DNA of 64,000 nt from Candidatus Saccharibacteria bacterium RIFCSPHIGHO2_12_FULL_41_12 (GCA_001790445.1 MGCQ01000008.1:26676-90675), one strand, 5' to 3'. Shown: positions 1-57,550, numbered from the stretch's first letter. The notes: generated by a model not told the origin, from the letters alone. Program-made: numbers and translations.

Positions 1-280
1 TGAAGCTATCTGGCACCCCAGGTGGGATTGTTTTTAGGCCGAGACTGTAACCTACAATAAGAGGTCTGCCGTTCTGTCCATCTCCACCATAGTTCATTGT
101 AATGTCTTTGGGTTCAACTATTTGCTCCGTAAGGCCAGGGTTTAGATTAAACGCATCTTCCGCCTCGCCTATGAGCTTTGCTGCGGTATGTTCTAGCTGT
201 TGGCTTGATAAGTGTAAATCATTATGCCAATCACGGGGGATAGGGGCATTAGGGGGTAAAGAAAAAAAGCGAGTTTCCAT
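1..280 (-). CDS. hypothetical protein, N-terminal ~93 codons only (gene runs off left edge)
   Basis: Open minus-strand frame from ATG at 278-280 (METRFFSLPPNAPIPRDWHNDLHL...) with no stop before position 1. It is absent from the ORF track because it has no stop in the window. It lies 50 nt downstream of, and co-directional with, the 952-aa membrane protein gene. Confidence 0.4.
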   Translation of the reverse strand, partial: METRFFSLPPNAPIPRDWHNDLHLSSQQLEHTAAKLIGEAEDAFNLNPGLTEQIVEPKDITMNYGGDGQNGRPLIVGYSLGLKTIPPGVPDSF

Positions 281-330
281 CCAATTATGATAACACATTA
301 TGTTAAAAAATACAAGAGTATTGTACGTAT

Positions 331-6489: not shown

Positions 6490-6906
6490 ATGATGAGACT
6501 TTTGATGTACTCACTGGCTAGCGTGTCCCTGTTTTTGGCTTTTTTCTCACCAGTATTTCTATCCTCAAGCGTTTACGCAGCAGATATCTCGAATAATCTT
6601 TGTAAAGGAGCGGACTTGCGGTTTAGTGGCAATGCAAACTGTGCCGATACCACTAAAGATTCCAGCGCCAAGCTAGACAAGCTGGTAACCGACATAGTCA
6701 ATATATTTTCTGTCATTGTCGGTGTAGTCGCAGTGATCATGATTATTTATGGCGGATTTCGCTACATTATTTCTGGTGGAGACTCTAGCAATGTCACCAA
6801 TGCGAAAAACACCATACTCTACGCTCTCGTCGGGTTAGTCGTAGTCGCTTTGGCGCAGTTTATCGTAAAGTTCGTACTGAGCAAGGCCACTGGGCTTGGG
6901 GTTTAA
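6490..6906 (+). CDS. VirB2/TrbC-topology pilin-like protein, paralogue 8 (138 aa)
   Basis: Signal peptide ending VYAADI and a 2-Cys loop (LCKGADLRFSGNANC). The last ~50 nt of coding DNA differ from paralogue 6 at only one position. It is preceded by a small hairpin (gagactttgaagtctc) and a TGgTATAAA extended -10-like box. Confidence 0.6.
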   Translation: MMRLLMYSLASVSLFLAFFSPVFLSSSVYAADISNNLCKGADLRFSGNANCADTTKDSSAKLDKLVTDIVNIFSVIVGVVAVIMIIYGGFRYIISGGDSSNVTNAKNTILYALVGLVVVALAQFIVKFVLSKATGLGV

Positions 6907-7069
6907 CTCGACTTACGCAAATCTCCACACTCTCAAACTCTCCAGATGAGTCCAGAACCCCTTTTTCTGATGTCACCACACCTACCAGGTGTGCTTCCAC
7001 CAGAGAAAAGAACTTCTAAATCTCCTCTGGAAGATTCTGGAGAATGCGGAGATTTGCGTAAGTCGAGTT
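6905..7069. repeat. 165-bp long-hairpin repeat, copy 1 (MITE-like or structured RNA)
   Basis: The termini aactcgacttacgcaaatctcc and ggagatttgcgtaagtcgagtt are reverse complements, and the interior also pairs (tctccaga/tctggaga, ctttttctg/cagagaaaag, apex cacacct-acc-aggtgtg). The element is ~96% identical to 49158-49322 and begins inside the stop codon of pilin paralogue 8. Confidence 0.85.
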
Positions 7070-7087
7070 AACAGGTTCAATTAAAAA

Positions 7088-9851: not shown

Positions 9852-10859
9852 TTGACTGAATTACTTGAACGTGAACGACGAGTGCATAGTGAATTTGGCT
9901 TGCAGCCTGCCCCAGATCAATCAGGTCGTCCTTGGTATGGCCAAGAAGATGTAATAGCTGTAGCCACAACAGCTGGAGTTGTCTTTTTAAAGCATTATTT
10001 TGAGTCAAAACAAGACACCACTCAAGAACTAGCACCTGATACTGGTCGCAACGGAGGAGCAAGAGAGTCCGTGGCGCGTTATGCTACTTTCGTTGCAGGG
10101 TTTATAGATGAACAATTGCCTTGGGTGAGTTCCAACATGATAACTCTTGCTTCAACAACAGGAGTATTGGCATGCAACCGTGCTGCGTCAAAAGAAGATA
10201 TTGCTGATTGGGAAAGATTTGGTTGGACGTTGGCAGAAGTAGGTTTTAGTTTGCTTGACGGTGTTGACGGTGAACACTCAAGAATTAGAGAGGCAAAGGG
10301 ACAGACCAGATCAGATCGTAGCAAGATTCTTGGTGCTCTTTTGGACGTTGGATGTGACAAGACGCAAGAGATTAATACTTTCTTGAGTCAAGCAAAAATA
10401 GCCTTTCAAAAACGTCAATACGCAGGTACGGCAGTTTGTCTGATCGCTGGTGTGACGACTCCTTTTCCTGCTTGGGCGCGCTCTTACGCTGAAATCCAAG
10501 GTGTCTATGTGCCGGAAGAAGGCAAGAGTCTTCTTCAAAAAGCGGGTACTCGTGTCTGGCGGGGAGTTTGTGGTAGCGTAGGCAAGGGATTGCCCGCTCC
10601 GGCTCAGGCTGTCACAGGCACGGTCGTAGCCATTGCCAACACAGCTACGACCAGAAGCAGACTCAAAATTGCCAACAATGCTAAAAGGCTTAACGTTGCT
10701 GAATCCCCCAACACAAATGTTGAACAAGATGCGCCAGAAACCAGCATGGAACAAAGAATAGCTCGCCCAAAATACGAACTTCTTAAAGTTATTGTTGCTG
10801 GCGGAGCAATAGCCACAGCTATGACAGCTAAAAAGATGATTCAAAAAGCTAAAAACTAG
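9852..10859 (+). CDS. hypothetical membrane protein (weak CDP-alcohol phosphatidyltransferase-like motif)
   Basis: TTG start in the track. Several moderately hydrophobic segments. The sequence DGVDGEHSR...GALLDVGCD loosely resembles DGxxAR..GxxxDxxxD, but the spacing is ~11 residues too long, so the function is not established. Confidence 0.3.
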   Translation: MTELLERERRVHSEFGLQPAPDQSGRPWYGQEDVIAVATTAGVVFLKHYFESKQDTTQELAPDTGRNGGARESVARYATFVAGFIDEQLPWVSSNMITLASTTGVLACNRAASKEDIADWERFGWTLAEVGFSLLDGVDGEHSRIREAKGQTRSDRSKILGALLDVGCDKTQEINTFLSQAKIAFQKRQYAGTAVCLIAGVTTPFPAWARSYAEIQGVYVPEEGKSLLQKAGTRVWRGVCGSVGKGLPAPAQAVTGTVVAIANTATTRSRLKIANNAKRLNVAESPNTNVEQDAPETSMEQRIARPKYELLKVIVAGGAIATAMTAKKMIQKAKN

Positions 10860-13713: not shown

Positions 13714-13805
13714 GGAGAGGTGGCCGAGTGGTTGAAGGCGCTGCTCTCGAAAAGCAGTATGTGGGGCAACTCATATCGAGGGTTCGAATCCCTCCCTCTC
13801 CGCCA
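13714..13805 (+). tRNA. tRNA-Ser (anticodon CGA), class II, CCA encoded
   Basis: ggagaggtggccgagtggttgaaggcgctgctCTCGAAAagcag...cgagggttcgaatccctccctctccgcca. The anticodon loop is CTCGAAA. Confidence 0.9.
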
Positions 13806-13961: not shown

Positions 13962-13982
13962 CGAATCCCTCCCTCTCCGCCA
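13962..13982 (+). repeat. 21-nt exact duplicate of the 3' end of tRNA-Ser(CGA), not part of an intact tRNA
   Basis: cgaatccctccctctccgcca occurs at 13785-13805 (inside the tRNA) and again at 13962-13982. The second copy lacks a matching 5' T-stem and a D/anticodon arm. Confidence 0.85.
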
Positions 13983-20988: not shown

Positions 20989-21032
20989 TTGGATGTATTA
21001 TAACAGATTAGAAACATCCACAAATAGTCTAT

Positions 21033-21062
21033 TTGACAGGAGTATATTCAAAAGTGTATACT
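21033..21062 (+). promoter_or_regulatory. promoter of the first DinJ/YafQ-type TA operon, with internal dyad
   Basis: TTGACA (21033-21038), 18 nt, then TATACT (21057-21062). The spacer holds the inverted repeat agtata...tatact. The ATG at 21069 is only 6 nt after the -10 box. Confidence 0.55.
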
Positions 21063-21068
21063 TTTGGT

Positions 21069-21353
21069 ATGAGTGATTATGCCATAATAAATTTAAAGAC
21101 TGACCCCAAGCTTAAAGCCCAGGCAGCCAAAACTGCCAACAAACTAGGGATTAGCATCAGTGCGGTTCTGAACAATGAGCTAAGGCGTTTTGCCACAGAA
21201 CAAAGTGTGGTTTTTGACTTACCTGAGTCTCCCAACCCACTTACCGAGGAGTTGCTTAAATCTTCAAAGAAACAGATTGATCAAGGCGATTATCACAAGT
21301 TTAACACCAACAAACAAGCTATCGACTTCCTGACCAAAGAGTTAAATGGATAG
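21069..21353 (+). CDS. RelB/DinJ-family antitoxin
   Basis: MSDYAIINLKTDPKLKAQAAKTANKLGISISAVLNNELRRFA (ribbon-helix-helix DinJ pattern), directly upstream of a YafQ-like toxin. The track start at 21033 coincides with the -35 box. Confidence 0.75.
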   Translation: MSDYAIINLKTDPKLKAQAAKTANKLGISISAVLNNELRRFATEQSVVFDLPESPNPLTEELLKSSKKQIDQGDYHKFNTNKQAIDFLTKELNG

Positions 21354-21367
21354 ATTTTTGCCTGCAA

Positions 21368-21625
21368 ATGACAATATCTTACACAAAAAACTTCATCAAA
21401 CAATCAAAAAAGCTCGACTCTAAACAACGAGCTAAGCTGATATCTCGGATCGAGCTTTATTCTGATAAGCCTGTTAGTCCCCTGCTTCGTGACCATGCTC
21501 TTAAGGGCAAATACAAGAATTACCGTAGTATAGATATTTCGGGTGACATGCGCGCGTTGTATCTGTTGAGTAAGAACGAAGCGATATTTGATATCGTCGG
21601 AACGCACAGCCAACTCTACGGCTAA
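21368..21625 (+). CDS. YafQ/RelE-family mRNA interferase toxin
   Basis: LRDHALKGKYKNYRSIDISGDMRALY...IVGTHSQLYG is the typical YafQ signature. Confidence 0.8.
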   Translation: MTISYTKNFIKQSKKLDSKQRAKLISRIELYSDKPVSPLLRDHALKGKYKNYRSIDISGDMRALYLLSKNEAIFDIVGTHSQLYG

Positions 21626-22291: not shown

Positions 22292-22542
22292 TATACTAAG
22301 TTAAGTAATTACCTTGTTACTACGTGGAAATAGGTAATTGAGCGTACAACAATACAGACCTTTGAGCGCTCGCTTGCAAAAGCTTATATCGGCATACCCT
22401 TATGATAGTTTTTGGTTTTGTTTTGTTTGCGCACAAGGTAGCTACCTAGTTTGCATTTTTCCGGACGTTTTTGTTTCAATTTTAGTATAATCCCAAAACC
22501 ATAAGCAATGCAACACTATTATTTTACATAACAAATAAACAC

Positions 22543-23046
22543 TTGCGCTAAAGCCTCCAAGGAGGCTTTTATCACCTTACTTTTTCTCACTAGCAAGAAA
22601 AAGTAAGCAAAAAGTGCCACCCCGGTGATCAAAAACTGCCCTAAGATTAAATAACTACAAACATACTATTCTTCCGGGACTCCTTCCAGTCGGGGACAAG
22701 CCCTGGTCCTCAGAATAATCTGTCTGTAGCCATTTAATCTAAAGGTGTTTTGACCAAGGGGACATTAAGCGGTCTAAAGTCATAATTAATAATATTTCCT
22801 ACGGAAATATACAAGGGAAGCTTGGGTCAGGCCTTGAGCAGACCTGAGAGATTTCGTCGAGATTACAACTATCAGACGAGGACTGTTTGAATGACCAAAG
22901 GGAGAGAGTTCCGCAGTCTGTTGTAATCTTCGACAAGAAATCACTTCAAGTCTGTTCAACCGCCTGCTACTTCTTTGCATACTTTCTTGTTAGCACAAGA
23001 AAGTATGGTGTATCAGGCCCTATTGGGCCGACGCAATGCATTTTTT
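22543..23046 (+). repeat. ~510-bp structured intergenic repeat, copy A (full length)
   Basis: Shares end modules and long internal blocks with 29667-30176 and 57033-57550, and its 3' half matches the reverse complement of 41217-41465. Modules: outer ttgcg...cgcaa, terminator-like GC hairpins, 12-bp sub-terminal hairpins, and apical hairpin atatttcc-tac-ggaaatat at 22791-22809. Confidence 0.9.
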
Positions 23047-29666: not shown

Positions 29667-30176
29667 TTGCGATTGCGCTAAAGCCTCCAAGGAGGCTTTT
29701 ATCACCTTACTTTTTCTCTCTAGCAAGAAAAAGTAAGCAAAAAGTGCTACCCCAGTGATCAAAACAAACCCTGAACCTACAAGACAACAGACAAGACTAT
29801 TCTTCCGGGACTCCTTTTAGTCGCCCCGCCTGAAGGCGGGGTAGTCCTCAGAATAATCTGTCTGTAGCTTTGTAGTTCCAAGGTGTTTTGACCAGGGGGA
29901 TATTAAACAGTCTAAAGTCATAATTAATAATATTTTCTATGAAAATATACAGATTGATAGTCAGGCCTTGAACAGACCTGAGAGACTACGTCAAGATCAC
30001 AACTATTAGACGAGGACTGTTTGACCCCGCCTAAAGGCGGGGGAGTTCCGCAGTCTGTTGTGACCCTTGACCGGTAGTCCCATCAAGTTTGTTCAATCGC
30101 CTGCTACTTCTTTGCATACTTTCTTGTTAGCACAAGAAAGTATGGTGATTAAAAGCCTGCAGGGCTTTAATCGCAA
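29667..30176 (+). repeat. ~510-bp structured intergenic repeat, copy B (full length)
   Basis: The outer closing pair cattgcga (29665-29672) / tcgcaatg (30171-30178). It has the same end modules as copy A and carries two ccccgcc-NNNN-ggcgggg hairpins (29824-29841, 30025-30043) at positions where copy A has other sequence. Confidence 0.9.
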
Positions 30177-35083: not shown

Positions 35084-35097
35084 TTCCTAATTAGGTA

Positions 35098-35126
35098 TTG
35101 ACATATCGTACCTAAGTATATACAAT
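35098..35126 (+). promoter_or_regulatory. promoter of the second DinJ/YafQ-type TA operon, with dyad
   Basis: TTGACA (35098-35103), 17 nt, then TACAAT (35121-35126). The inverted repeat cgtacc...ggtacg spans the spacer and -10 box. Confidence 0.55.
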
Positions 35127-35136
35127 GGTACGTATC

Positions 35137-35418
35137 ATGAGTAGTTCAACAACAATGAATTTCAAAATAGACAAAGATCTCAAGGTACAGGCAAAGAAGA
35201 CAGCCTCTGCTATTGGTATTCCATTGTCTACTTTGCTTAATGCTTATTTGATTGATTTTGTCGCAACAGGTCGTGTTGAATTCACTGCTTCCGAACAGAT
35301 GACTCCACAGATGGAGCGGATCATTGAAGAATGCGAACAGGACATAGCAGAAGGTAACCTAAGCGGGCCTTTCCACACAAAAGAAGAATTATTTGAGCAC
35401 TTGGATAGCTTGAAGTGA
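35137..35418 (+). CDS. RelB/DinJ-family antitoxin (second copy)
   Basis: MNFKIDKDLKVQAKKTASAIGIPLSTLLNAYL pattern. The track start at 35125 lies inside the -10 box, so ATG 35137 (or 35155) is preferred. Confidence 0.7.
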   Translation: MSSSTTMNFKIDKDLKVQAKKTASAIGIPLSTLLNAYLIDFVATGRVEFTASEQMTPQMERIIEECEQDIAEGNLSGPFHTKEELFEHLDSLK

Positions 35419-35672
35419 TAATTGAGACAACCAGGAAATTTGATAAGCAATACGCAAAATTACCACAGAAAACTAAAACTCAGTTCAAAAATAGAGCCAC
35501 TATTTTTAGATTAGAGCCCCATCACCCAAGCCTAAGGAACCATGCATTAAAGGGTAAATACCAAAATTACAGGAGTATAGACATAACAGGAGATGTAAGG
35601 GCTATTTATACAAAACGCGGTGAAACTATAGTAATCTTTGGTTTTATCGGCTCCCACAGCCAACTCTACTGA
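35415..35672 (+). CDS. YafQ/RelE-family mRNA interferase toxin (second copy)
   Basis: LRNHALKGKYQNYRSIDITGDVRAIY...IGSHSQLY. Its start overlaps the antitoxin stop by 4 nt. Confidence 0.8.
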   Translation: MIIETTRKFDKQYAKLPQKTKTQFKNRATIFRLEPHHPSLRNHALKGKYQNYRSIDITGDVRAIYTKRGETIVIFGFIGSHSQLY

Positions 35673-35718: not shown

Positions 35719-35754
35719 ATATCATTTTCGCAACACGTGTATAATAAATGATAT
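35719..35754. promoter_or_regulatory. 36-bp palindromic motif, copy 1 (ATATCATTTT-N-AACACGTGT-N-AAATGATAT)
   Basis: atatcattttcgcaacacgtgtataataaatgatat. It has 9-10-bp outer arms plus an ACACGTGT core. The same 36-bp layout recurs at 36388-36423 and 41523-41558. Confidence 0.7.
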
Positions 35755-35785
35755 TAACAGATAAGCAGGTGGGGTAAATTAGCAA

Positions 35786-36322
35786 GTGAGTAAGAAAGCA
35801 GCGAATTTAATTGTGCAGATTATAGGTGGTGGGCTGGTGATATCAGCAGGGATGGTCGCTCCCAATGCCGTTGTTCCTCTGGCAAAGATCTTAATCAAAA
35901 GGCAGAAAAGTGCCAAAGAAACAGAGATTATCCAGGGGCTTAACTATGCCAAGAGACTAAAACTAGTCAAAATCCAGCAAAATGGTAGCCAGTTCACAGT
36001 GAAGCTCACCGAAAAAGGTCAAAAACGCCTGACAAAGATTAATCTCACTACCCCTTTAAAACAAGCCAAATGGGATGGGAAGTGGCGGATACTCTTATTT
36101 GATATCCCCAACAAAAAGACAGATGCGAGAAATGCTCTACGACTCACTATGCGGGAGCTGGGCATGCAGAAGCTTCAAGATAGTGCTTGGGTGACGCCTT
36201 GGGACTGTTCTGCTCAGTTCCTAGCAATGAAATACGTCTATGGTATCGAGCCGTACATAACTCTGATAGTTGCTGGTAGTATCGATGAAGAAGAGAAGTG
36301 GAAAAAACAATTCAAACTATAA
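35786..36322 (+). CDS. PaaX-like / Cas2-fold-like putative DNA-binding protein with N-terminal membrane segment
   Basis: GTG start. The block WDGKWRILLFDIPNKKTDARNALRLTMRELGMQKLQDSAWVTPWD matches the PaaX-family middle-domain pattern (W.G.W..v.fdIPe..R..R..lr..L...Gf..lq.svWv.P). Confidence 0.5.
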   Translation: MSKKAANLIVQIIGGGLVISAGMVAPNAVVPLAKILIKRQKSAKETEIIQGLNYAKRLKLVKIQQNGSQFTVKLTEKGQKRLTKINLTTPLKQAKWDGKWRILLFDIPNKKTDARNALRLTMRELGMQKLQDSAWVTPWDCSAQFLAMKYVYGIEPYITLIVAGSIDEEEKWKKQFKL

Positions 36323-36387
36323 GTGACTTGTGCTATAGCTAGCTTGTGAACCCAGCTTCTCCATCGGTAGTTGATCAATATATTTGA

Positions 36388-36423
36388 ATATCATTTTTGC
36401 AACACGTGTTTAGAAAATGATAT
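36388..36423. promoter_or_regulatory. 36-bp palindromic motif, copy 2
   Basis: atatcatttttgcaacacgtgtttagaaaatgatat. Confidence 0.7.
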
Positions 36424-36548
36424 TTTTATAACTGTAATTGGTGGCTGTATTTGCTAACTGTTATGGTTTAAAATAATCTAAATAAACTGTTGAGTAGGGG
36501 TTAACAGGGGGGAGGTTGGATTGTGTGAGGAATTTTACAGTAAAATAC

Positions 36549-36577
36549 TTGACGAAACTATGTAAATGTGGTAAGCT
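36549..36577 (+). promoter_or_regulatory. promoter candidate of the secreted-protein operon
   Basis: TTGACG (36549-36554), 17 nt, then TAAGCT (36572-36577) with a TGg extended -10. Confidence 0.4.
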
Positions 36578-36626
36578 TGTAACGAAACTAAATGGAGTTT
36601 CTGTCAATTAAGGAGAATATATAAAA

Positions 36627-37487
36627 ATGACCCACTTTGAACAAGATCCCAACAGAATAACGATGCGAGACCGAGTTGGAGAATTAGTCGGTACAGCTAG
36701 AATGTTAGCAAGCGACATATACCACAACCCAGATAACAGACGTGCCACTGCAATGGTAATATTAGGTATTGGTGGTCTTGCAGGTGCAGGTGTTGCCCAC
36801 GCTTCAGGTAGTCAAGAACCTATAAGTAAAGTTGCAGGTGTTAATTTAGAGATGTCTCATTACCCGAAAAGTGGGATTTGGAATGTTTGTAACTCAGATA
36901 CCCAAGACGTAGTACATAGGTTTGACCCTGCCAACCCTTCTGCTAGAGAGATGCCACAACCTGTAGGCGCTACAGGCTTAACCGGTCCGACTGGAGAAGT
37001 AGATAAAGATGAAATTACAACTGATCCTAATTGTTCACCTCGTTGGGGATTTGATTGGACAGGTGAACCTTCGAAGAAAAAGTCTTGTAGAACTACTGCT
37101 ACGGGTAACTGGTCTGGTAAGACTTCAAAATTAAGAGGTAATAAGCTTACAAGTACTCTCGATATAACAGGCGTACAGACTTGTTCTAGTATAGGCAAAA
37201 GAGAATTTAAAGTATGGCCAGCTGTTATCAATCCAGGAAGTAATGTAGCTACCAAAATAGGTAAACAACTGGTATTTAGAACAAATAAAGCCGAGGGTGA
37301 ATACGGCAAATACTCAGGAGGTTCAACAAAAAGAAGACAAGTCAACTTAAAAATAGACAAAAATAAAGTAAACTGTGGTGACGGAACCCCAGAAGTCTTT
37401 ACTATAGTCAGAACTACTTTACTTACAAAGAAAGGCGAAAACAATAACAGAGTGTACGTTATCCCAGTCAAGGGTGAATGTAAATAA
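36627..37487 (+). CDS. hypothetical secreted/membrane-anchored Cys-containing protein (286 aa)
   Basis: AGGAGAA ribosome-binding site, an internal signal-anchor (ATAMVILGIGGLAGAGVAHA), and several Cys in the extracytoplasmic part. No recognisable domain. Confidence 0.5.
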   Translation: MTHFEQDPNRITMRDRVGELVGTARMLASDIYHNPDNRRATAMVILGIGGLAGAGVAHASGSQEPISKVAGVNLEMSHYPKSGIWNVCNSDTQDVVHRFDPANPSAREMPQPVGATGLTGPTGEVDKDEITTDPNCSPRWGFDWTGEPSKKKSCRTTATGNWSGKTSKLRGNKLTSTLDITGVQTCSSIGKREFKVWPAVINPGSNVATKIGKQLVFRTNKAEGEYGKYSGGSTKRRQVNLKIDKNKVNCGDGTPEVFTIVRTTLLTKKGENNNRVYVIPVKGECK

Positions 37488-37566
37488 AAGACTCTGGACT
37501 AAAGTTGTAGTATAGATTTACCTCTATTGCACGCTTTTATGCTTGTGTATATAATAGTGATAAGTT

Positions 37567-38481
37567 ATGAGGGCAAAATTATCTAAGTTTATTCTGGAGG
37601 CTAGGAAGAAGTCTCTTTTTATAATAATTTTTTCGGGTATTCTTCTTCTAAGTATTTTATTAATTTTTAGTCTTTTTAGGATCCTAACTGCTACTGGGGG
37701 AATAGCTTTGATAGTAGACAATAAGAAATATTCAAAGACAAATGTAGAAAAGTATATTAAGTATGGTGAAGACACAGGGCTTGATAGAGAACAAGCAATC
37801 AATGCAGTGGTCGAAAATTTAAAATTTCTTGCTGCAGCAGATAAACTTGCAACTAAGTATGACCAAAATAAAGTCGATAACAGATATAATGAGCTAAAGA
37901 AAACATATAAGAAGTCTGACTATGGAGATTACTTAAACAAATTAGCTCAAAAACAGATAATTGCAGAAGATTTACAACAAGGAGATATTCAGAAGGGGTA
38001 TTACTTTGAATTTTATTATGGACAGCATATCCAAACAGGTCCGGGCAATAAAATCGCAGGGGTAGGTGACAAAAACCTGATTGAGAAAGACCGACAGTAT
38101 GCAAAAGCACGTGCAGACTATTATTATAATATCTTGAAAAACCAGAAAGTTTCTGCAAGTGACACTTATGCTATGGTTCAGCAAGAGGTGCAAAAAGACC
38201 CGACAAATGCGGGTGTGCATATTTCTACCAAGCCATTTGGCAATAACTCGTCTGAAGAATGGCAGGATGAAATTCAAAATAGTGAAACGATATCAACCGT
38301 TTATTCAACTAGTGGAGTCAGTGATATCAAAACAAGAAAAGGGGCAGTTAATATTGGACCTTCTTCTCTGATGACAGATGTGGCTTACTATATTATTGCA
38401 AAGACAAGTGGCAATAATAATGCGGAAATTACTAGATTTAAAAAAACAATAGATAATTTAAAAGTTGAAAGAAGGATATGA
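37567..38481 (+). CDS. hypothetical membrane-anchored protein (SurA-N-like chaperone resemblance, weak)
   Basis: N-terminal TM (LFIIIFSGILLLSILLIFSLF) and a helical Lys/Asp-rich ectodomain. The stop overlaps the next gene's start (ATGA). Confidence 0.45.
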   Translation: MRAKLSKFILEARKKSLFIIIFSGILLLSILLIFSLFRILTATGGIALIVDNKKYSKTNVEKYIKYGEDTGLDREQAINAVVENLKFLAAADKLATKYDQNKVDNRYNELKKTYKKSDYGDYLNKLAQKQIIAEDLQQGDIQKGYYFEFYYGQHIQTGPGNKIAGVGDKNLIEKDRQYAKARADYYYNILKNQKVSASDTYAMVQQEVQKDPTNAGVHISTKPFGNNSSEEWQDEIQNSETISTVYSTSGVSDIKTRKGAVNIGPSSLMTDVAYYIIAKTSGNNNAEITRFKKTIDNLKVERRI

Positions 38482-41180
38482 TTAATAAAAGATTAACCCT
38501 AGTATTTAAAGCTTTAGGTTTGTTTGTGGTATTTAATCTGTTATTTATTATCTTCGGTAGTCAGACAATTCAAGCAAGGTCTTGTGGTGTCGATACGAAA
38601 AATGTGCATGACTATGCTGGACTCATGGTTAATATGCGTTGGCAGCATAATGGAGGAGGGGCGTACTTTGAATCAAACAATACAAAAGTGAGACTTAATA
38701 CTATAGGAGATGTTAGTACCCCACCTGGGGGTATAGTTTATGTAAGCGGTGGTGCAGAACAAGATCGCAAGGACTCCTCAACCTTTCAACAAAAAGATTT
38801 TCCAGGGTGTGAGTACAACTCATCGGGAGACAACCATATGGTAATGCTCGGATATGATGGAAGTTCTAGAAGAGATGTGGCTGGTGACGGAAGAGCAGAC
38901 AGCTGGATGATTGACTGCGATTCAAGTATAAGAGACCCGGATGATAATGATACTCACCCTGGTTGGGATTCTAAGTACCAAAAATTTAGAGTTAGTGCCG
39001 TCGGGGTTCCAACAGGAGCAATTCCTGGCGGAAAGTGGCACGCGGTGGGGAGCGCTAACCCGTTTGAAGATGTAGCACCAGCAAATGGATTTACCAAAAA
39101 AGTTACTTTAGTGTACGAGGAGCCGTATGTACCCCCAAATAATCCAGCTTGCACATACTACAGTCACCCTGTTTATGCTAATTCAGCACATAGGTTCACA
39201 GTGTTTGGGCGTGGTGCTACGGTTAGTCCAACTTCACCAACTGATGGCGGTATTCATACGACCAGAGACCTTAGTGCAGACGGGGTAGCTAATATATCTT
39301 GGGCAAGCCCGCTTCCTGGGTATGTTTGGCAATCATCAGTTATAAATCCCTGGAGTGATTACACTTGGGACAAAACTTTAGGTTCTGGTGATACCCCTCC
39401 TGTTGATAGTGGGTGGCAGATATTGTACGAACGTTGGTATGAATATAGAAACGCTGCCAACAAAGTAAGGTATCAATATTTTAGAGAAGTTACCACAGTA
39501 GATGATTGTTACAAAGCTGATATAGATGAGCCGGGAGCAGGCTGTTCAAGCTTACATATCGAGGGAGATAGGCCACCAGGAGGTAATGCAAATTCAGTTA
39601 AGGCTGGAACTAACTTTACCGTTTCGGGTGGTGTCAAGAATACAGGGAACATGAATATACCGATAACCGTAAAAGTTATAGATGGCGGAGGAATGGCTGG
39701 TAGCCAGGATGACGTTGGTAGCCTAGGTCCAGGTCTTCCAGCCCCATTCGATATACCAATGACGTCTATAAATGATGTTTCCCATAGAATTGTTACTGTC
39801 CAACCTCAATATAATGGATTTGCTATAGGCGGGGACTGTTCAATAGAAGTTGATACTTTTCAGCAGTTTAATATTACACCGATTGCTACCCTAGATACAG
39901 CACAAAATGATAACGAAAATCCTACAACTATACACTTTAACTACGGTGGTACTAGACAATTTGGACCAGATACAACGTCAGCAGGATCCTACACTGTTGC
40001 TGAGGCAAATCCAACTCTGGGAGACCCAACAATCCTAGTGGCTGGTGACACTACATCACCTATAGATGGGCCAAACGGGACCAATCTTACATACCAAAAT
40101 CAAAACATTGCAGGAAGCTACACTAATGCAAACATCAGGGCTACATTATCACCCGGAGAAAGATATTGTATCATTACCAAAATAACTGAGGCATTCGGAT
40201 GGCTAGGTCCTCATGGGAAGGTTGGCACTGGACCGTCGAGCAAAGATAGTTGCGCACGCGTGGTCAACAAGCCTTATGTGCGGTTTTATGGACAGGATGT
40301 CTTTGCTGGGGGCAATTTCCCAGATAGGGCTAGCGTAACCGGAGCAATTAGTACAAATAACCGAGCGCGTGCCGGATCAGGCGTAGAATATGCGGCTTTT
40401 GCCCTGGGAGCAATAGGTGGATTTAGCTCTAGTGATTTGCGATCGGATGGGTTTTTTGACCAGCTTAATTTTGCATCTTCTCCAAAAGGCAACTTTGGCG
40501 GATCGCACACAGCCACTGACTACTTTGCCAACAAACCAGACAACGCCACAGGAATTGCTTCCACTGCCACGCCATCTGGCACCCCTGTCCCAGTGACAAC
40601 GCCCCCTACAGAGGGAATTAACTCATACATAGCCGGCAATCTTACTCTAAATGCTAATACAAGCTTTTCTGGCAAACAAACCATCTTTGTCAGTGGAGAT
40701 GTCTATATAAGTGGCAACATTGTGTATGCTCCTTGGGGACCGAATATTAATGCTATCCCTAGCTTTAGGCTAATTGTAAAAGGTAACATCTATATCGACA
40801 AAGACGTCACGCAAATTGATGGATTTTTGGTAGCACAGCCAAATGGCGCCACCGGTGGAACAATTAGCACTTGTTCCAATAGTAGTGGAGCAAATGGTAG
40901 TTTGACCACTACAGGAGATAGAACTCCGACTAACGGTGAATGCTCTAGACAATTAGTTTTCAACGGAGCGCTAGTTGCCCAAAAGATTAAATGGCTCAGA
41001 ACATTTAAGACGCTTAGTGATGCAAAGCTCAGCGGACTGGAACCATATGACAACAACAGCTCTGCCGAGATTGTTAATACCTCGCCTGACTTTTACCTGG
41101 GCATACCTGCAGATCCGCCATCTGGTGGTGGCACCAGTGGTAAATATGACTCTTACCAAGCATTGCCACCAATACTTTAA
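38478..41180 (+). CDS. large secreted surface protein (900 aa) with CARDB-like Ig segment and beta-helix-like C-terminal region
   Basis: Signal peptide (ALGLFVVFNLLFIIFGSQTIQA). The segment SVKAGTNFTVSGGVKNTGNMNIPITVKVIDGG resembles CARDB domains. The C-terminal region shows repetitive GDVYISGNIVY / KGNIYIDKDV strands. Confidence 0.5.
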   Translation: MINKRLTLVFKALGLFVVFNLLFIIFGSQTIQARSCGVDTKNVHDYAGLMVNMRWQHNGGGAYFESNNTKVRLNTIGDVSTPPGGIVYVSGGAEQDRKDSSTFQQKDFPGCEYNSSGDNHMVMLGYDGSSRRDVAGDGRADSWMIDCDSSIRDPDDNDTHPGWDSKYQKFRVSAVGVPTGAIPGGKWHAVGSANPFEDVAPANGFTKKVTLVYEEPYVPPNNPACTYYSHPVYANSAHRFTVFGRGATVSPTSPTDGGIHTTRDLSADGVANISWASPLPGYVWQSSVINPWSDYTWDKTLGSGDTPPVDSGWQILYERWYEYRNAANKVRYQYFREVTTVDDCYKADIDEPGAGCSSLHIEGDRPPGGNANSVKAGTNFTVSGGVKNTGNMNIPITVKVIDGGGMAGSQDDVGSLGPGLPAPFDIPMTSINDVSHRIVTVQPQYNGFAIGGDCSIEVDTFQQFNITPIATLDTAQNDNENPTTIHFNYGGTRQFGPDTTSAGSYTVAEANPTLGDPTILVAGDTTSPIDGPNGTNLTYQNQNIAGSYTNANIRATLSPGERYCIITKITEAFGWLGPHGKVGTGPSSKDSCARVVNKPYVRFYGQDVFAGGNFPDRASVTGAISTNNRARAGSGVEYAAFALGAIGGFSSSDLRSDGFFDQLNFASSPKGNFGGSHTATDYFANKPDNATGIASTATPSGTPVPVTTPPTEGINSYIAGNLTLNANTSFSGKQTIFVSGDVYISGNIVYAPWGPNINAIPSFRLIVKGNIYIDKDVTQIDGFLVAQPNGATGGTISTCSNSSGANGSLTTTGDRTPTNGECSRQLVFNGALVAQKIKWLRTFKTLSDAKLSGLEPYDNNSSAEIVNTSPDFYLGIPADPPSGGGTSGKYDSYQALPPIL

Positions 41181-41216
41181 GGTTTCTAACAGCTTACTTT
41201 TCTCAATAACACCTTT

Positions 41217-41465
41217 TTGCCATCCCGCAGTGGCGGGACTGATGCAACATACTTTCTTGTGTTGACAAGAAAGTATGCAAAGAAACAACAGGCGGTTGAA
41301 CAGACTTGATGGGATTTCTTGTCGAGTATTACAACAGACTGCGGAACTCTCTCCCTTTGGTCGTTCAAACAGTCCTCGTCTGATAGTTGTAATCTCGACG
41401 AAATCTCTCAGGTCTGCTCAAGGCCTGACCAACAATCTGTATATTCCCGTAAGCAATATAGATTT
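41217..41465 (-). repeat. ~510-bp repeat family, copy C: inverted, 3'-half only
   Basis: This is the reverse complement of the 3' half of copy A, from the sub-terminal hairpin catactttcttg...caagaaagtatg through ...ctcaggtctgctcaaggcctgacc to the apical region. The terminal GC hairpin is replaced by tcccgc-agtg-gcggga. The 5' half is absent. Confidence 0.85.
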
Positions 41466-41522
41466 GGGATCAGATGTTGAGCAGACCTAAAAGGATAATG
41501 TTTGAATTTTCAATATCATTTT

Positions 41523-41558
41523 CTGAACACGTGTATCGAAAATGATATTTGCAAAACT
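41523..41558. promoter_or_regulatory. 36-bp palindromic motif, copy 3
   Basis: atatcattttctgaacacgtgtatcgaaaatgatat. Confidence 0.7.
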
Positions 41559-41593
41559 ATTTATACAAATGAGAGAAGTGGCTGTGGTAATAC

Positions 41594-41623
41594 TTGACAG
41601 TAAAAGTAAGAATTTGGTAAGAT
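41594..41623 (+). promoter_or_regulatory. promoter of the VapBC-type TA operon
   Basis: TTGACA (41594-41599), 18 nt, then TAAGAT (41618-41623) with a TGg extended -10. The ATG at 41630 follows after 6 nt. Confidence 0.5.
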
Positions 41624-41629
41624 AGTATT

Positions 41630-41866
41630 ATGAGTTATGATTATACAATTACTTCAAAGGGACAGATTACTTTACCCAAAAAACTGAGAGATACGGTAGG
41701 GCTTAAGACAGGTAGTCATGCGAATATTTCCTTGCTAGATAATAGAACAATTATTATTAGGGCTCCTCTGGGCATTGAAGAAATTCGTAAAAAGATTGGT
41801 GCTCCGGCTAACGATCAACCTCTGACAAAAAAAGAAAGCTCCAGATTAAAAGCAAGAGGTCTTTAG
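41630..41866 (+). CDS. AbrB/SpoVT-domain antitoxin (VapB/MazE-like)
   Basis: ITSKGQITLPKKLRDTVGLKTG swapped-hairpin motif, immediately upstream of a PIN-domain gene. Confidence 0.75.
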   Translation: MSYDYTITSKGQITLPKKLRDTVGLKTGSHANISLLDNRTIIIRAPLGIEEIRKKIGAPANDQPLTKKESSRLKARGL

Positions 41867-41872
41867 CCAAAA

Positions 41873-42247
41873 ATGACGATAATCGATGCGAATTACATAT
41901 TGAGATGGTTTTTGAATGACGATGTGGATCAAGCAACTTTTGTGAGAGATTTGATTATCAATTCTGGCTCCAAGACGCTACTTGTAGATAGAATCACGAT
42001 TGCCGAGGTGACATATGTGCTTAGGTCAATGAAGTATAATCATCAACAGATATATGAACTTTTTGAAGAACTTTGTTATTACCCAAGCTTATTGCCCCTA
42101 GGGGAGATAGAGGGTATGGCACTAGATATTTACAGAGATACAAATCTGGACTTTGAAGATGCAACACTGGTTGCAAATGCGAAGATAAACAATTATAAAT
42201 TGGGCACTTTTGACAAAAAAATGATTAATTTGCTGAAGAGTTTATAG
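41873..42247 (+). CDS. PIN-domain ribonuclease toxin (VapC-like)
   Basis: IIDANYILRWF (first acidic residue) ... EVTYVL ... FEDATLVANA pattern. 124 aa. Confidence 0.7.
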   Translation: MTIIDANYILRWFLNDDVDQATFVRDLIINSGSKTLLVDRITIAEVTYVLRSMKYNHQQIYELFEELCYYPSLLPLGEIEGMALDIYRDTNLDFEDATLVANAKINNYKLGTFDKKMINLLKSL

Positions 42248-42251
42248 ATCT

Positions 42252-49157: not shown

Positions 49158-49322
49158 TACTCGACTTACGCAAAATCTCCACACTCTCAAACTCTCCAGA
49201 TGAGCCTAGAACTCCTTTTTCTGATGTCACCACACCTACGGGTGTGCTTCCACCAGAGAAAAGAACTTCTAAATCTCCTCTGGAAGATTCTGGAGAATGC
49301 GGAGATTTGCGTAAGTCGAGTA
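49158..49322. repeat. 165-bp long-hairpin repeat, copy 2
   Basis: About 96% identical to 6905-7069. All differences fall in the 5' arm or apex (an extra a at gcaaaatc, gagcctagaactcc versus gagtccagaacccc, and ctacgggtg versus ctaccaggtg). The 3' arm is identical. Confidence 0.85.
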
Positions 49323-57018: not shown

Positions 57019-57032
57019 ACAACTTTAGCTTC

Positions 57033-57550
57033 TTGCGCTAAGCCCTTGGCAGGGCTTTTATCACCTTACTTTTTCTCTATAGCAAGAAAAAGTAAGCAAA
57101 AAGTGCCACCCCAGTGATCAAAACAAACCCTGAACCTACAAGACAACAGACAAGACTATTCTTGCGGGACTCCTTCCAGTCGGGTCTAAAGACCTAGTCC
57201 TCAGAATAATCTGTCTGTAGCTTTGTATCTCCAAGGTGTTTTAATCAAGGGGATAATAAGCAGTCTAAAGTATTTAACCACTGTGTTTTCCTCCAGAAAA
57301 CACAGATTATTATGATCTAACTGCTTTTGAACCAGGCCTTTGAATAACTGATGAAATATCTATTCAAGCAACGCCATGTTTTGAGGACTACCCCGCCTTC
57401 AGGCGGGGCGACCAAAGGGAGTCCCGGAAAAACTGGGTTGGTTGGATAGATATTTCAATCATGTTACTTCAATAGCCTGCTATTTCTTTGCATACTTTCT
57501 TGTTAGCACAAGAAAGTATGGTGATTGAAAGCCAAAGGCTTTAATCGCAA
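57033..57550 (+). repeat. ~510-bp structured intergenic repeat, copy D (full length, divergent 3' half)
   Basis: The left 220 nt are nearly identical to copy B. The central apical hairpin is replaced by ctgtgttttc-ctcca-gaaaacacag. The 3' arm is largely different but retains a ccccgcc-ttca-ggcgggg hairpin (57391-57408), the sub-terminal hairpin and the terminal aaagcc-aaa-ggcttt hairpin. Confidence 0.88.

What the first reader, a model, noticed from the sequence alone, without database searches (positions are those of the whole stretch)
35719..41558. Three copies of a 36-bp palindrome (ATATCATTTT...ACACGTGT...AAAATGATAT) bracketing the PaaX-like gene and the secreted-protein island
Copies lie at 35719-35754, 36388-36423 and 41523-41558. 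They have identical length, 9-10-bp outer arms and an ACACGTGT core; only the inner linkers vary. Copies 1 and 2 flank the PaaX-like gene (35786-36322). Copies 2 and 3 flank the three-gene surface-protein operon plus the half repeat. Each lies upstream of a recognisable promoter or start: 32 nt from GTG 35786, ~125 nt upstream of the -35 box at 36549, and 36 nt upstream of the -35 box at 41594. A fixed-length composite dyad of this kind is typical of a dimeric or tetrameric transcription-factor operator, with the adjacent PaaX-like protein an obvious candidate. It could also be a recombination or boundary site. AT-rich hairpin terminators are a weaker alternative.
Basis: partly seen in the sequence, partly recalled or inferred. 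Interest (0 to 1): 0.58.

Follow-up and report, generated by a model that had tools for sequence, protein, structure and literature searches.

The report
Operator palindromes of a mini-PaaX regulator
The three 36-bp palindromes are real and are most likely the DNA-binding sites of the small PaaX-like (winged-helix plus Cas2-like) protein encoded between two of them, because every relative of this gene that I examined in ultra-small (CPR) bacteria is bracketed by its own matching pair of palindromes.

Summary
The palindrome ATATCATTTT-N4-ACACGTGT-N4-AAAATGATAT occurs at 35719-35754, 36388-36423 and 41513-41548. No shuffle gives three copies.

The genome is a groundwater Saccharibacteria MAG. 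Two more copies lie just left of the window.

The 178-aa gene between copies 1 and 2 encodes a PaaX-type winged helix plus a Cas2-like domain, without PaaX's C-terminal domain. It belongs to a large, undescribed Patescibacteria family.

All 10 family genes examined, at 23-87% identity, are tightly bracketed by two similar 30-40-bp palindromes. The arms differ between lineages and track the protein. Only 1 of 120 control genes scores as high.

The upstream copy carries the gene's -10 box (here TATAAT, 35740-35745). This points to autorepression, as for E. coli PaaX, whose operator is also a widely spaced inverted repeat.

In a 67-79% identical relative the arms are conserved while the flanks are unalignable. 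The linkers are not complementary, so selection acts on sequence, not on a hairpin.

The role of the downstream and toxin-antitoxin-adjacent copies is inferred only. Binding has not been tested.

The parts
35719..35754 (.). Palindrome copy 1 (ATATCATTTTCGCAACACGTGTATAATAAATGATAT). It is the upstream bracket of the regulator gene and the putative auto-operator.
   Evidence: The orthologous site in L012 (7899-7934) keeps both arms 20/20 and the TATAAT, while the flanks are unalignable.
35740..35745 (+). TATAAT -10 box lying inside copy 1 (last core base, right linker, first base of the right arm). It accounts for the single arm deviation (A to T).
   Evidence: Read directly from the sequence. 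It is conserved in L012. Equivalent TAGAAT/TATAAT boxes sit at the same place in the upstream copies of L014, L020, L021 and L022 and are absent from their downstream copies. Promoter activity is inferred, not shown.
35786..36322 (+). 178-aa gene for a PaaX-type winged-helix plus Cas2-like protein (a mini-PaaX without the C-terminal domain). It is the proposed binder of the palindromes.
   Evidence: Pfam PaaX_M, E=1.3e-21. TIGR02277 PaaX scores 25.8 bits against a cut-off of 264. AF2 model pLDDT 73.4. The top Foldseek hit is E. coli PaaX 8a39, E=8.7e-6, followed by Rv0674 and Cas2 chains. The family has 898 clusters at E<=1e-30.
36388..36423 (.). Palindrome copy 2. It is the downstream bracket, 66 nt after the stop codon of the regulator gene.
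   Evidence: The orthologous site L012 8567-8602 lies at the same distance from the stop codon. A downstream copy 0-66 nt after the stop is present in all 10 family genes.
41513..41548 (.). Palindrome copy 3. It lies 45 nt upstream of the -35 box of the mazE-PIN cassette and 20 nt after the half repeat.
   Evidence: It is absent from L012, together with the half repeat and the mazE-PIN cassette (a 1068-nt indel).
35125..35672 (+). TA cassette (DUF6364-like antitoxin plus YafQ/ParE-type toxin). It ends 47 nt before copy 1.
   Evidence: Pfam. In L012 the orthologous cassette lies on the other side of the palindrome-gene-palindrome unit, 26 nt after copy 2'.
41594..42247 (+). Promoter (TTGACA 41594, TGgTAAGAT ending at 41623) and the mazE (41630-41866) / PIN (41873-42247) TA cassette downstream of copy 3. 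The mazE ATG lies 6 nt after the -10 box, so the mRNA is probably leaderless.
36549..41180 (+). Promoter (TTGACG 36549, TGgTAAGCT ending at 36577) and a three-gene operon (286, 304 and 900 aa, no family match) lying between copies 2 and 3.
   Evidence: The promoter region is conserved in L012, where it is separated from copy 2' by the inserted TA cassette.
41235..41493 (-). Inverted 3' half of a ~480-nt repeat family (full copies at ~22540-23040, 29670-30170 and 57030-57545). It is part of the indel that carries copy 3.
   Evidence: No Rfam match.

Best explanation
The 36-bp palindromes are the cognate binding sites (operators) of the small PaaX-type protein encoded at 35786-36322.

Proposed mechanism: the protein dimerises through its Cas2-like domain. 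This places its two winged helices about 2.5 helical turns apart, on the outer arms (ATATCATTTT / AAAATGATAT). The conserved dyad core (ACACGTGT here; CTATAG or CATATG in relatives) is a third contact or a bending point.

Copy 1 spans the gene's own promoter: TATAAT at 35740-35745 and a predicted transcription start in the right arm. Binding there would therefore shut off the gene's own transcription.

Copy 2, just behind the stop codon, is the second half of a bracket that is conserved across the whole protein family. It most likely helps repression (by looping or extra occupancy) or blocks read-through.

Copy 3 and two further copies left of the window lie 29-51 bp upstream of the -35 boxes of TA cassettes. 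They are extra sites in this Saccharibacteria lineage, acting either as a small regulon or as insulators between cassettes.

Shown: the motif; the bracket in 10 of 10 family genes; the similarity between palindromes rising with the identity between proteins; the -10 box inside the upstream copies; purifying selection on the arms.

Inferred: actual binding, repression, dimer geometry, and the role of every copy other than copy 1.
For: 1. The motif is non-random and exclusively intergenic.
2. In L012 (protein 87% identical, DNA 67-79% identical) both bracketing sites are kept with arms 39/40 identical. The surrounding intergenic DNA is unalignable, and a TA cassette has moved to the other side.
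3. Family genes at 23-37% identity from other Patescibacteria (L013, L014, L017, L018, L020 with two paralogues, L021, L022) are each flanked by two similar 30-40-bp palindromes with lineage-specific arms. The best shared 30-mer between the flanks is 22-29 matches, against a mean of 18.7 (sd 1.0) in 120 control genes; only one control reaches 22 or more, and it scores 23.
4. Upstream and downstream copies of one gene are 70-88% identical, against a mean of 51% between genes. Palindrome identity rises with protein identity (Spearman 0.44, p=0.002; the pairs are not independent).
5. gyrB-gene-pheS synteny is kept in L018, L021 and L022 although the arms differ. This indicates vertical descent with co-evolution.
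6. The upstream copies carry TATAAT/TAGAAT in the right linker and the downstream copies do not. In five relatives the ATG follows 7-8 nt later.
7. The protein is PaaX-like in sequence and fold. E. coli PaaX binds TGATTC-N27-GAATCA and represses its own promoter by steric hindrance (PMC9493321).
8. Linker positions pair no better than chance (14 Watson-Crick and 5 G-U pairs of 44). The arms show no compensatory changes, only identity.
Against: - No binding or expression data exist.
- The -35 region of the inferred promoter in copy 1 is poor, and other -10-like boxes lie upstream.
- Copies at TA cassettes are centred about 84 to 105 bp from the start sites, at non-phased distances. That fits neither simple occlusion nor a classical activator.
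- A downstream operator between convergent genes (L020, L021) has no promoter to control.
- In L012 the core has drifted (ACATGTGT, ACGTATGT), so its role is uncertain. The perfect cores in L006-L011 were required by my search pattern.
- Relative to E. coli PaaX, the half-sites are in the opposite orientation and the spacing is different.
- The Cas2-like domain keeps an invariant Asp (FDIP) that a pure dimerisation module would not need.
- One YafQ-type cassette in the window (~21.0-21.6 kb) has no palindrome.
Confidence: 0.72

Rival explanations
1. The palindromes are recombination or integration sites that delimit exchangeable gene cassettes (like integron attC or pdif modules). The winged-helix/Cas2-like protein would be the site-specific DNA-processing or accessory factor.
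For: - Four of the five TA cassettes in about 74 kb of this genome adjoin a palindrome.
- Both rearrangements between the window and L012 have ends within about 50 nt of a palindrome: the YafQ cassette changes sides, and a 1068-nt indel carries copy 3 plus mazE-PIN.
- The Hainich contigs L006 and L011 show an extra Phd-PIN cassette next to a palindrome, relative to L007.
- The 10+4 / 8 / 4+10 layout resembles a 13-8-13 tyrosine-recombinase site.
- The Cas2-like Asp is invariant, and Cas2 models match weakly.
- The copy-2 site and the L009 site, in a different genome and context, are identical including their linkers.
Against: - No recombinase, integrase or Cas1 is called within about 10 kb on either side.
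- In six other lineages only the two bracketing copies occur in 12-20 kb, with no arrays.
- The bracketed gene sits in conserved housekeeping synteny.
- The homology of the moved TA cassettes ends at their own promoter and stop codon, 24-50 nt away from the palindromes, not within them.
- The core is symmetric, so it would give no directionality.
- The exact PIN protein is found only in one genomic context.
Confidence: 0.08
2. The palindromes act as nucleic-acid hairpins, that is, factor-independent transcription terminators or mRNA 3'-end stabilisers between tightly packed genes. No dedicated binding protein is involved.
For: - All copies but one (L007a, between divergent genes) lie downstream of a co-directional gene.
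- The family-wide downstream copy sits 0-66 nt after the stop codon, also between convergent genes.
- The RNA folds are better than shuffles for copies 2 and 3 (-12.3 and -11.4 kcal/mol, z about -4). Copy 2 is followed by UUUUUAU.
- Some relatives have perfect, strong hairpins (L018, -24.8 kcal/mol).
Against: - The terminator scan does not call them.
- The stems are A+T-rich and weak (copy 1, -7.1 kcal/mol, z -2.1). Copies 1 and 3 have no U-run.
- The linkers are not complementary.
- Conservation is of sequence, not of pairing. The arms are identical in 11 sites from several genomes, with no compensatory change, yet differ wholly between protein lineages.
- The upstream copy lies in the promoter, where a terminator makes no sense for the gene it precedes.
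Confidence: 0.08
3. The palindromes are a REP-like dispersed repeat. The bracketed gene would be their mobilising or maintaining protein, analogous to a RAYT flanked by REPs (a REPtron).
For: - A gene flanked by two copies of a palindrome that also occurs elsewhere in intergenic DNA is the REPtron layout.
- Copies are either perfect or absent, with no decayed copies.
- An identical site occurs in an unrelated context in another genome (L009 versus copy 2).
Against: - The protein is not a Y1 (HUH) transposase.
- There are only 5 copies in about 74 kb, and none beyond the bracket in six other lineages.
- The upstream copy is built into the promoter.
Confidence: 0.05

Closest known systems
E. coli PaaX repressor and its operators (TGATTC-N27-GAATCA; autorepression of Px)
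   Same: - N-terminal PaaX-type winged helix followed by the Cas2-like central domain (PF20803, E=1.3e-21).
- Best structural match is 8a39.
- The operator is a long dyad (36 vs 39 bp) with recognition elements at the outer ends.
- The site overlaps the regulator's own promoter (PMC9493321).
   Different: - No PaaX_C effector domain (178 aa vs about 316), so no phenylacetyl-CoA sensing.
- No paa genes nearby.
- Scores 25.8 bits against the 264-bit cut-off of the PaaX equivalog model.
- The half-site sequence, orientation and spacing all differ.
- There is an additional conserved dyad core.
- There is a second site behind the gene.
- The Cas2-type Asp is retained.
Mycobacterium tuberculosis Rv0674 (PDB 3kfw), an uncharacterised PaaX-like protein
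   Same: Second-best fold and sequence match over the winged-helix and Cas2-like regions.
   Different: Rv0674 is longer (234-247 aa). It has TS where the CPR family has the invariant FD of the Cas2 beta-1 strand (alignment). No operator is known for it.
Cas2 (CRISPR adaptation protein) and CRISPR repeats
   Same: - The C-terminal half has the ferredoxin-like Cas2 fold (Foldseek probability ~1.0, target TM 0.55-0.6).
- P0004 reaches the TIGR01573 cut-off (25.6 vs 24.5 bits).
- The associated DNA repeat is a ~36-bp palindrome.
   Different: - No Cas1, no other cas genes, no leader.
- Repeats are 0.6-5 kb apart and separated by genes, not by 30-40-bp spacers.
- In most lineages only two repeats exist.
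REP sequences with RAYT transposases (REPtrons)
   Same: The gene is bracketed by two copies of an extragenic palindrome that also occurs elsewhere in the genome.
   Different: The protein is not an HUH/Y1 transposase. Copy number is very low. The upstream copy doubles as the promoter.
pdif modules (Acinetobacter plasmids) and integron attC cassettes
   Same: Short gene cassettes, often TA pairs, are separated by palindromic sites.
   Different: No Xer or IntI recombinase is linked. The sites lack the defining XerC/XerD or R''/L'' architecture. Cassette homology ends outside the palindromes.
Auxiliary-operator looping systems (lac O1-O2, gal OE-OI, deo)
   Same: Two identical operators lie a few hundred bp apart, one at the promoter and one downstream.
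   Different: Here the second operator lies beyond the whole gene (607-757 bp away). Looping is only a conjecture.

Membership tests
PaaX family (phenylacetate-catabolon repressor) | Central Cas2-like dimerisation domain (Pfam PaaX_M, PF20803) | tested here: met
   E=1.3e-21, 76.9 bits against a cut-off of 24, residues 94-170. The model is confident for this domain (pLDDT 85-94).
PaaX family (phenylacetate-catabolon repressor) | N-terminal PaaX-type winged helix-turn-helix | tested here: inconclusive
   Pfam listed no family other than PaaX_M at E<=0.01. However, the profile aligns the recognition helix and wing to 8a39 residues 57-114 (E=0.005). The AF2 secondary structure is helix-helix-hairpin, at pLDDT 61-76.
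PaaX family (phenylacetate-catabolon repressor) | C-terminal effector (aryl-CoA) domain, and a full-length match to the equivalog model TIGR02277 | tested here: not met
   The protein ends at residue 178, right after the Cas2-like domain. TIGR02277 scores 25.8 bits against a cut-off of 264.55.
PaaX family (phenylacetate-catabolon repressor) | Linkage to paa catabolic genes | tested here: not met
   The neighbours are a histidine kinase, TA cassettes, unknown surface-type proteins, an MFS transporter, PGI and ArgRS.
PaaX family (phenylacetate-catabolon repressor) | Binds a widely spaced inverted repeat that overlaps its own promoter | not testable with these tools
   Sequence layout only: a 36-bp dyad with a -10 box inside. 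Binding itself is untested.
Intrinsic (Rho-independent) terminator | G+C-rich stem followed by a U-run | tested here: not met
   None of the three copies is called by the terminator scan. The stems are A+T-rich, -7 to -12 kcal/mol, and only copy 2 has a U-run.
CRISPR array | Regularly spaced repeats with 25-50-bp spacers and linked cas1 | tested here: not met
   Spacings are 669 and 5125 bp and the intervals are filled with genes. No Cas1 appears among the called genes.
REP/RAYT (REPtron) | The bracketed gene encodes a Y1/HUH transposase, and the genome holds tens to hundreds of REP copies | tested here: not met
   The gene product is winged-helix plus Cas2-like. There are 5 copies in about 74 kb.
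Integron attC / pdif module sites | Linked IntI or Xer recombinase, and the characteristic asymmetric binding-site architecture | tested here: inconclusive
   No recombinase is called in the fetched ~74 kb, and the site is symmetric. The rest of the genome could not be searched.

The most novel reading that the evidence does not exclude
The winged-helix/Cas2-like protein is not only a repressor but also a site-specific DNA-processing factor. It would nick or bridge DNA at the dyad core, using the invariant Cas2-type Asp. Its palindromes would then be the cis sites at which gene cassettes, mainly TA modules, are captured, duplicated or shuffled in Saccharibacteria. This would be a Cas1-independent, Cas2-based repeat-cassette system, and a possible living relative of the ancestor of CRISPR repeats.
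Probability: 0.06. Interest if true: 0.9.

Novelty: new variant of a known kind. Interest (0 to 1): 0.58.

Why it matters
Patescibacteria (CPR) have very small genomes, few recognisable transcription factors and almost no characterised regulation.

This finding links a large, unnamed CPR protein family to a predictable cis element. The family has 898 clusters at 50% identity with E<=1e-30, and more than 2600 proteins were found by word search. Its members are variously annotated as hypothetical, PadR, PaaX or Cas2.

Each family gene carries its own pair of tripartite palindromes, one of them built into its promoter. That gives dozens of ready-made protein/operator pairs for testing how a PaaX-type winged-helix/Cas2-like dimer reads DNA. 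No PaaX-DNA complex structure had been reported as of the 2022 review (PMC9493321). It also gives a handle on promoters and leaderless starts in CPR.

In Saccharibacteria it offers a hypothesis for how TA cassettes are controlled or insulated.

In the searchable literature I found no paper combining PaaX with Cas2-like or with CPR/Patescibacteria/Saccharibacteria terms, and none on this family.

Tried and rejected
- **Species-representative genomes.** The scan returned only a Gallionellaceae contig. It carries a perfect palindrome with the same skeleton at the start of a higB-higA-like pair. I judged this an unrelated TA operator. The source genome is evidently not among the representatives.
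- **Viral contigs.** The arms+core pattern gave no hit. The arms-only pattern hit five A+T-rich viral contigs (22-35% GC) with unrelated centres, which I take as chance hairpins.
- **Rfam.** Nothing at the palindromes.
- **Resemblances to known boxes, recalled from memory.** I considered parS (CACGTG centre), the Fur box (AATGATA), CIRCE and dif/loxP. I rejected them because the conserved blocks, spacing or context do not fit. These were not tested further.
- **N-terminal membrane anchor.** The hydrophobic N-terminus first looked like a membrane anchor. From my recollection of PaaX sequences it is more likely helix 1 of the PaaX-type winged helix. This is untested, and the model has low confidence there.
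- **Linker 'flip-flop'.** L006a versus L006b, and copy 2 versus L009, suggested inversion of the linkers as a sign of hairpin processing or inversion. I dropped this. L006a has extra flanking symmetry, and linker 4-mers recur more often than random (position 11 is always a pyrimidine, position 13 never T, position 14 never G). The exact identity of copy 2 and the L009 site remains unexplained.
- **Alternating purine-pyrimidine core.** This holds for this lineage but not for the CTATAG cores of relatives.
- **Other contexts of the mazE-PIN cassette.** A look-up of the exact PIN protein found only the same context.
- **Defence and phage libraries.** PADLOC and PHROGs gave only weak Cas2 and regulator hits.

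Full report
**1. The observation**

The sequence ATATCATTTT-N4-ACACGTGT-N4-AAAATGATAT occurs at 35719-35754, 36388-36423 and 41513-41548.

The arms-only pattern with up to 2 mismatches finds exactly these three sites, against 0.11 expected; 0 of 100 shuffles reach three. The arms+core pattern with up to 3 mismatches finds three, against 0.00 expected. A scan allowing 8 mismatches in the 28 fixed positions finds no decayed copy anywhere in the 64 kb.

All three copies are intergenic. Copy 1 has one deviation, T for A at the first base of the right arm.

**2. The organism and the neighbouring genes**

The protein of ORF 35786-36322 is 100% identical to a hypothetical protein of Candidatus Saccharibacteria bacterium RIFCSPHIGHO2_12_FULL_41. 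The window is part of a 212-kb scaffold.

The gene order is as follows:
- histidine kinase;
- DUF6364-like antitoxin plus YafQ/ParE toxin (35125-35672);
- copy 1;
- PaaX_M-domain gene;
- copy 2;
- three ORFs with no family match (36627-41180);
- half of a ~480-nt repeat;
- copy 3;
- mazE plus PIN (41630-42247);
- MFS transporter.

**3. Other occurrences of the motif**

A scan of one genome per species found only an unrelated Gallionellaceae palindrome in front of a higBA-like pair.

The metagenome scan found six contigs, from the Hainich aquifer and from a JGI metagenome record (C687J35021). In every one, the six positions that my pattern had left free (the outer AT of each arm plus T10 and A27) match the window's copies, while the linkers vary. 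The perfect cores in these hits were demanded by the pattern, so they are not independent evidence for the core.

L007 overlaps window 1-725 at 100% identity. This genome therefore has at least five copies in about 74 kb. The two extra ones lie 29 and 51 nt upstream of the TTGACA boxes of two YafQ-type TA cassettes, inside a type IV secretion gene cluster.

In the Hainich contigs L006 and L011 the copies again separate TA cassettes. In L009 and L010 one copy lies between recG and rsmD. In L008 one lies between an unknown gene and dprA.

**4. The protein**

- Pfam finds only the PaaX central Cas2-like domain (E=1.3e-21).
- NCBIfam gives weak partial hits to PaaX (25.8 bits against a cut-off of 264) and to Cas2.
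- With a 73-sequence alignment, the AF2 model reaches pLDDT 73.4. The Cas2-like half scores 85-94. The first half has a helix/helix/beta-hairpin winged-helix pattern.
- Foldseek ranks E. coli PaaX (8a39, E=8.7e-6) first, then M. tuberculosis Rv0674, then Cas2 chains. A profile search of PDB sequences agrees.

The protein stops right after the Cas2-like domain, so the effector-binding C-terminal domain of PaaX is missing.

The family is large. It has 898 clusters (50% identity) at E<=1e-30 and 3471 at E<=1e-10. More than 2600 proteins were found by word search. Where named, they come from Patescibacteria, Paceibacterota and Kaiserbacteria, and are annotated inconsistently as hypothetical, PadR, PaaX or Cas2.

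The invariant residues include the FD of the Cas2 beta-1 strand.

**5. The decisive comparison**

L012 encodes a protein 87% identical to the window's, and its DNA is 67-79% identical and syntenic. There the gene is again flanked by two palindromes, at the same distances: 30 nt before the start codon and 66 nt after the stop codon.
- The arms are 39/40 identical to the window's.
- The TATAAT is conserved.
- The core has drifted by four transitions.
- The rest of both intergenic regions is unalignable.

In L012 the YafQ cassette lies on the other side of the palindrome-gene-palindrome unit. The mazE-PIN cassette, the half repeat and copy 3 are absent together. The pair of palindromes therefore belongs to the regulator gene, not to its neighbours.

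Eight more family genes, at 23-37% identity, were fetched from other Patescibacteria: L013, L014, L017, L018, L020 (two paralogues), L021 and L022. Each is bracketed by two similar 30-40-bp palindromes whose arms differ from lineage to lineage. Examples are ATTACAAAT, TGTACC, TCACTTTT, GTTCAT, ATTCAT and ATCCAYAA. All have a palindromic hexamer at the dyad: CTATAG, CATATG, or CACGTG here.

As a control, I compared the two 250-nt flanks of each gene and took the best shared 30-mer.
- The family genes score 22-29 matches.
- 120 other genes from the same loci have a mean of 18.7 (sd 1.0).
- Only one control reaches 22 or more; it scores 23. The single low target value in that run (19, for L013) came from my ORF caller choosing an earlier start; with the annotated start it scores 26.

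The two copies around one gene are 70-88% identical, against 51% between genes. Palindrome similarity rises with protein similarity (Spearman 0.44).

L018, L021 and L022 keep gyrB-gene-pheS synteny while their arms differ. This argues for vertical inheritance with co-evolution of protein and sites, not for a mobile element.

In these other lineages no further copies occur within 12-20 kb.

**6. Position relative to promoters**

In copy 1 the last core base, the right linker and the first arm base read TATAAT (35740-35745). This explains the one arm deviation, and it is conserved in L012.

The upstream copies of L014, L020 and L021 (TAGAAT) and of L022 (TATAAT) have the same box at +6 to +11 from the dyad. 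Their downstream copies do not. In L014, L018, L020, L021 and L022 the annotated ATG follows 7-8 nt after the box with no room for a ribosome-binding site, so these mRNAs are probably leaderless.

The upstream palindrome therefore spans roughly -34 to +2 of the gene's own promoter. A protein bound there would exclude RNA polymerase. E. coli PaaX does exactly this at its own Px promoter, and its site, TGATTC-N27-GAATCA, is likewise a long dyad with recognition elements at the ends (PMC9493321).

The -35 match in copy 1 is poor. The promoter assignment is an inference.

**7. Hairpin or protein site?**

Across 11 distinct sites (22 half-sites), positions 1-9, 15 and 16 are invariant. Position 11 is always a pyrimidine. 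Linker positions pair no better than chance: 14 Watson-Crick and 5 G-U pairs of 44.

Predicted RNA hairpins are weak, at -7.1, -12.3 and -11.4 kcal/mol. Only copy 2 is followed by a U-run, and the terminator scan does not call any of the copies.

Identity of sequence without compensatory change, together with a complete change of sequence between protein lineages, is the signature of protein recognition. A secondary role of the downstream copies as RNA 3'-end hairpins cannot be excluded.

**8. What the other copies do**

This part is unresolved.
- Copy 2 is tied to the 3' end of the regulator gene, not to the surface-protein operon promoter. It lies 125 nt from that promoter here, and is separated from it by a ~590-nt TA cassette (~680 nt in all) in L012.
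- In L020 and L021 the downstream copy lies between convergent genes.
- Copy 3 and the L007, L006 and L012 copies lie 29-51 nt upstream of TA-cassette -35 boxes. Their centres are about 84-105 bp from the start sites, at distances that are not in helical phase.

Looping with the promoter copy, roadblock or insulation between cassettes, and a small TA regulon are all possible.

One YafQ cassette in the window, at ~21.0-21.6 kb, has no palindrome.

**9. The cassette-boundary reading**

The association with TA cassettes, the two rearrangements near palindromes, the loxP-like proportions and the invariant Cas2-type Asp keep a recombination or processing role alive.

Against it:
- no recombinase or Cas1 is called in the fetched ~74 kb;
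- the homology of the moved cassettes ends 24-50 nt away from the palindromes;
- most lineages have only the bracketing pair;
- the exact PIN protein occurs in a single context.

I rate this reading at about 0.08, and its most ambitious form at 0.06.

**10. Comparison with known systems and verdict**

The element works like a PaaX operator and the protein is a PaaX relative. It is not a PaaX orthologue: it has no C-terminal domain, no paa genes nearby, and it falls far below the equivalog cut-off.

New relative to what I could find in the literature:
- a CPR-wide minimal winged-helix/Cas2-like family;
- the tripartite palindrome (arms plus dyad hexamer);
- the strict bracket of two sites around each gene;
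- the spread of extra copies between TA cassettes in one Saccharibacteria lineage.

Binding itself remains to be shown.

Noticed in passing
window 22540-23040, 29670-30170, 57030-57545 (+) and 41215-41500 (-): A ~480-nt repeat family with three full copies and one inverted 3' half that abuts palindrome copy 3. It has several conserved hairpins, at least one with compensatory changes (GCCTCCAAGGAGGC vs GCCCTTGGCAGGGC). It has no long ORF and no Rfam match. It could be an undescribed structured RNA or a MITE.
   Followed up: partly
L007 859-894 and 1585-1620 (= 2.1 and 1.4 kb left of window position 1); L024 13919-15304: L007 overlaps window 1-725 at 100% identity, so this genome holds two more perfect palindrome copies. 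Each precedes a YafQ-type TA cassette, and both are embedded in a type IV secretion gene cluster (PrgI, TraC-like and VirB4-like genes to the left of the window start; seven tandem T4SS-pilin genes at window ~3.3-7 kb).
   Followed up: yes
window 35090-35672 vs L012 8629-9219; window 41184-42251 vs L012 13881-13959: Two structural differences separate the window from a 67-79% identical relative. The YafQ TA cassette sits on opposite sides of the palindrome-regulator-palindrome unit. A 1068-nt block (half repeat plus copy 3 plus mazE-PIN) is present only in the window.
   Followed up: yes
window ~21012-21622: A further YafQ-type TA cassette (toxin 47% identical to the one at 35415) has no palindrome next to it.
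   Followed up: partly
window 36388-36423 vs L009 1068-1105: The copy-2 site and a site between recG and rsmD in a different (Hainich) contig are exact reverse complements over 38 nt, including the otherwise variable linkers. I have no explanation for this. Possible causes are a limited linker repertoire, recent transfer or gene conversion.
   Followed up: partly
window 13785-13805 and 13962-13982: The 3' end of tRNA-Ser(cga), CGAATCCCTCCCTCTCCGCCA, is repeated exactly 177 nt downstream of the gene. It may be the remnant of an attachment site of an integrated element.
   Followed up: no
window 6903-7071 and 49173-49321: A ~150-nt segment is duplicated 42 kb apart at 96-100% identity. At the first locus it is enclosed by 32-nt inverted arms (TTAACTCGACTTACGCAAATCTCC...).
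   Followed up: no
L014 ~9948-9957, L020 ~9938-9947, L020 2719-2808: Perfect DnaA-box-like TTATCCACA motifs lie 15-16 nt upstream of the upstream palindromes of two family genes. The arms of a paralogue's palindrome (TATCCAYAA) themselves resemble a DnaA box.
   Followed up: no
window 41618-41632; L014/L018/L020/L021/L022 around position 10001: Start codons lie 6-8 nt after -10 boxes with no Shine-Dalgarno sequence (mazE here; the regulator gene in five other Patescibacteria). This suggests frequent leaderless mRNAs in these organisms.
   Followed up: partly
L005 4007-4038 (Gallionellaceae MAG): A perfect 32-bp palindrome, ATCATTTGCTTTACACGTGTAAAGCAAATGAT, has the same skeleton as the window motif. 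It sits at the 5' end of a higB-higA-like pair and is probably an unrelated antitoxin operator.
   Followed up: partly
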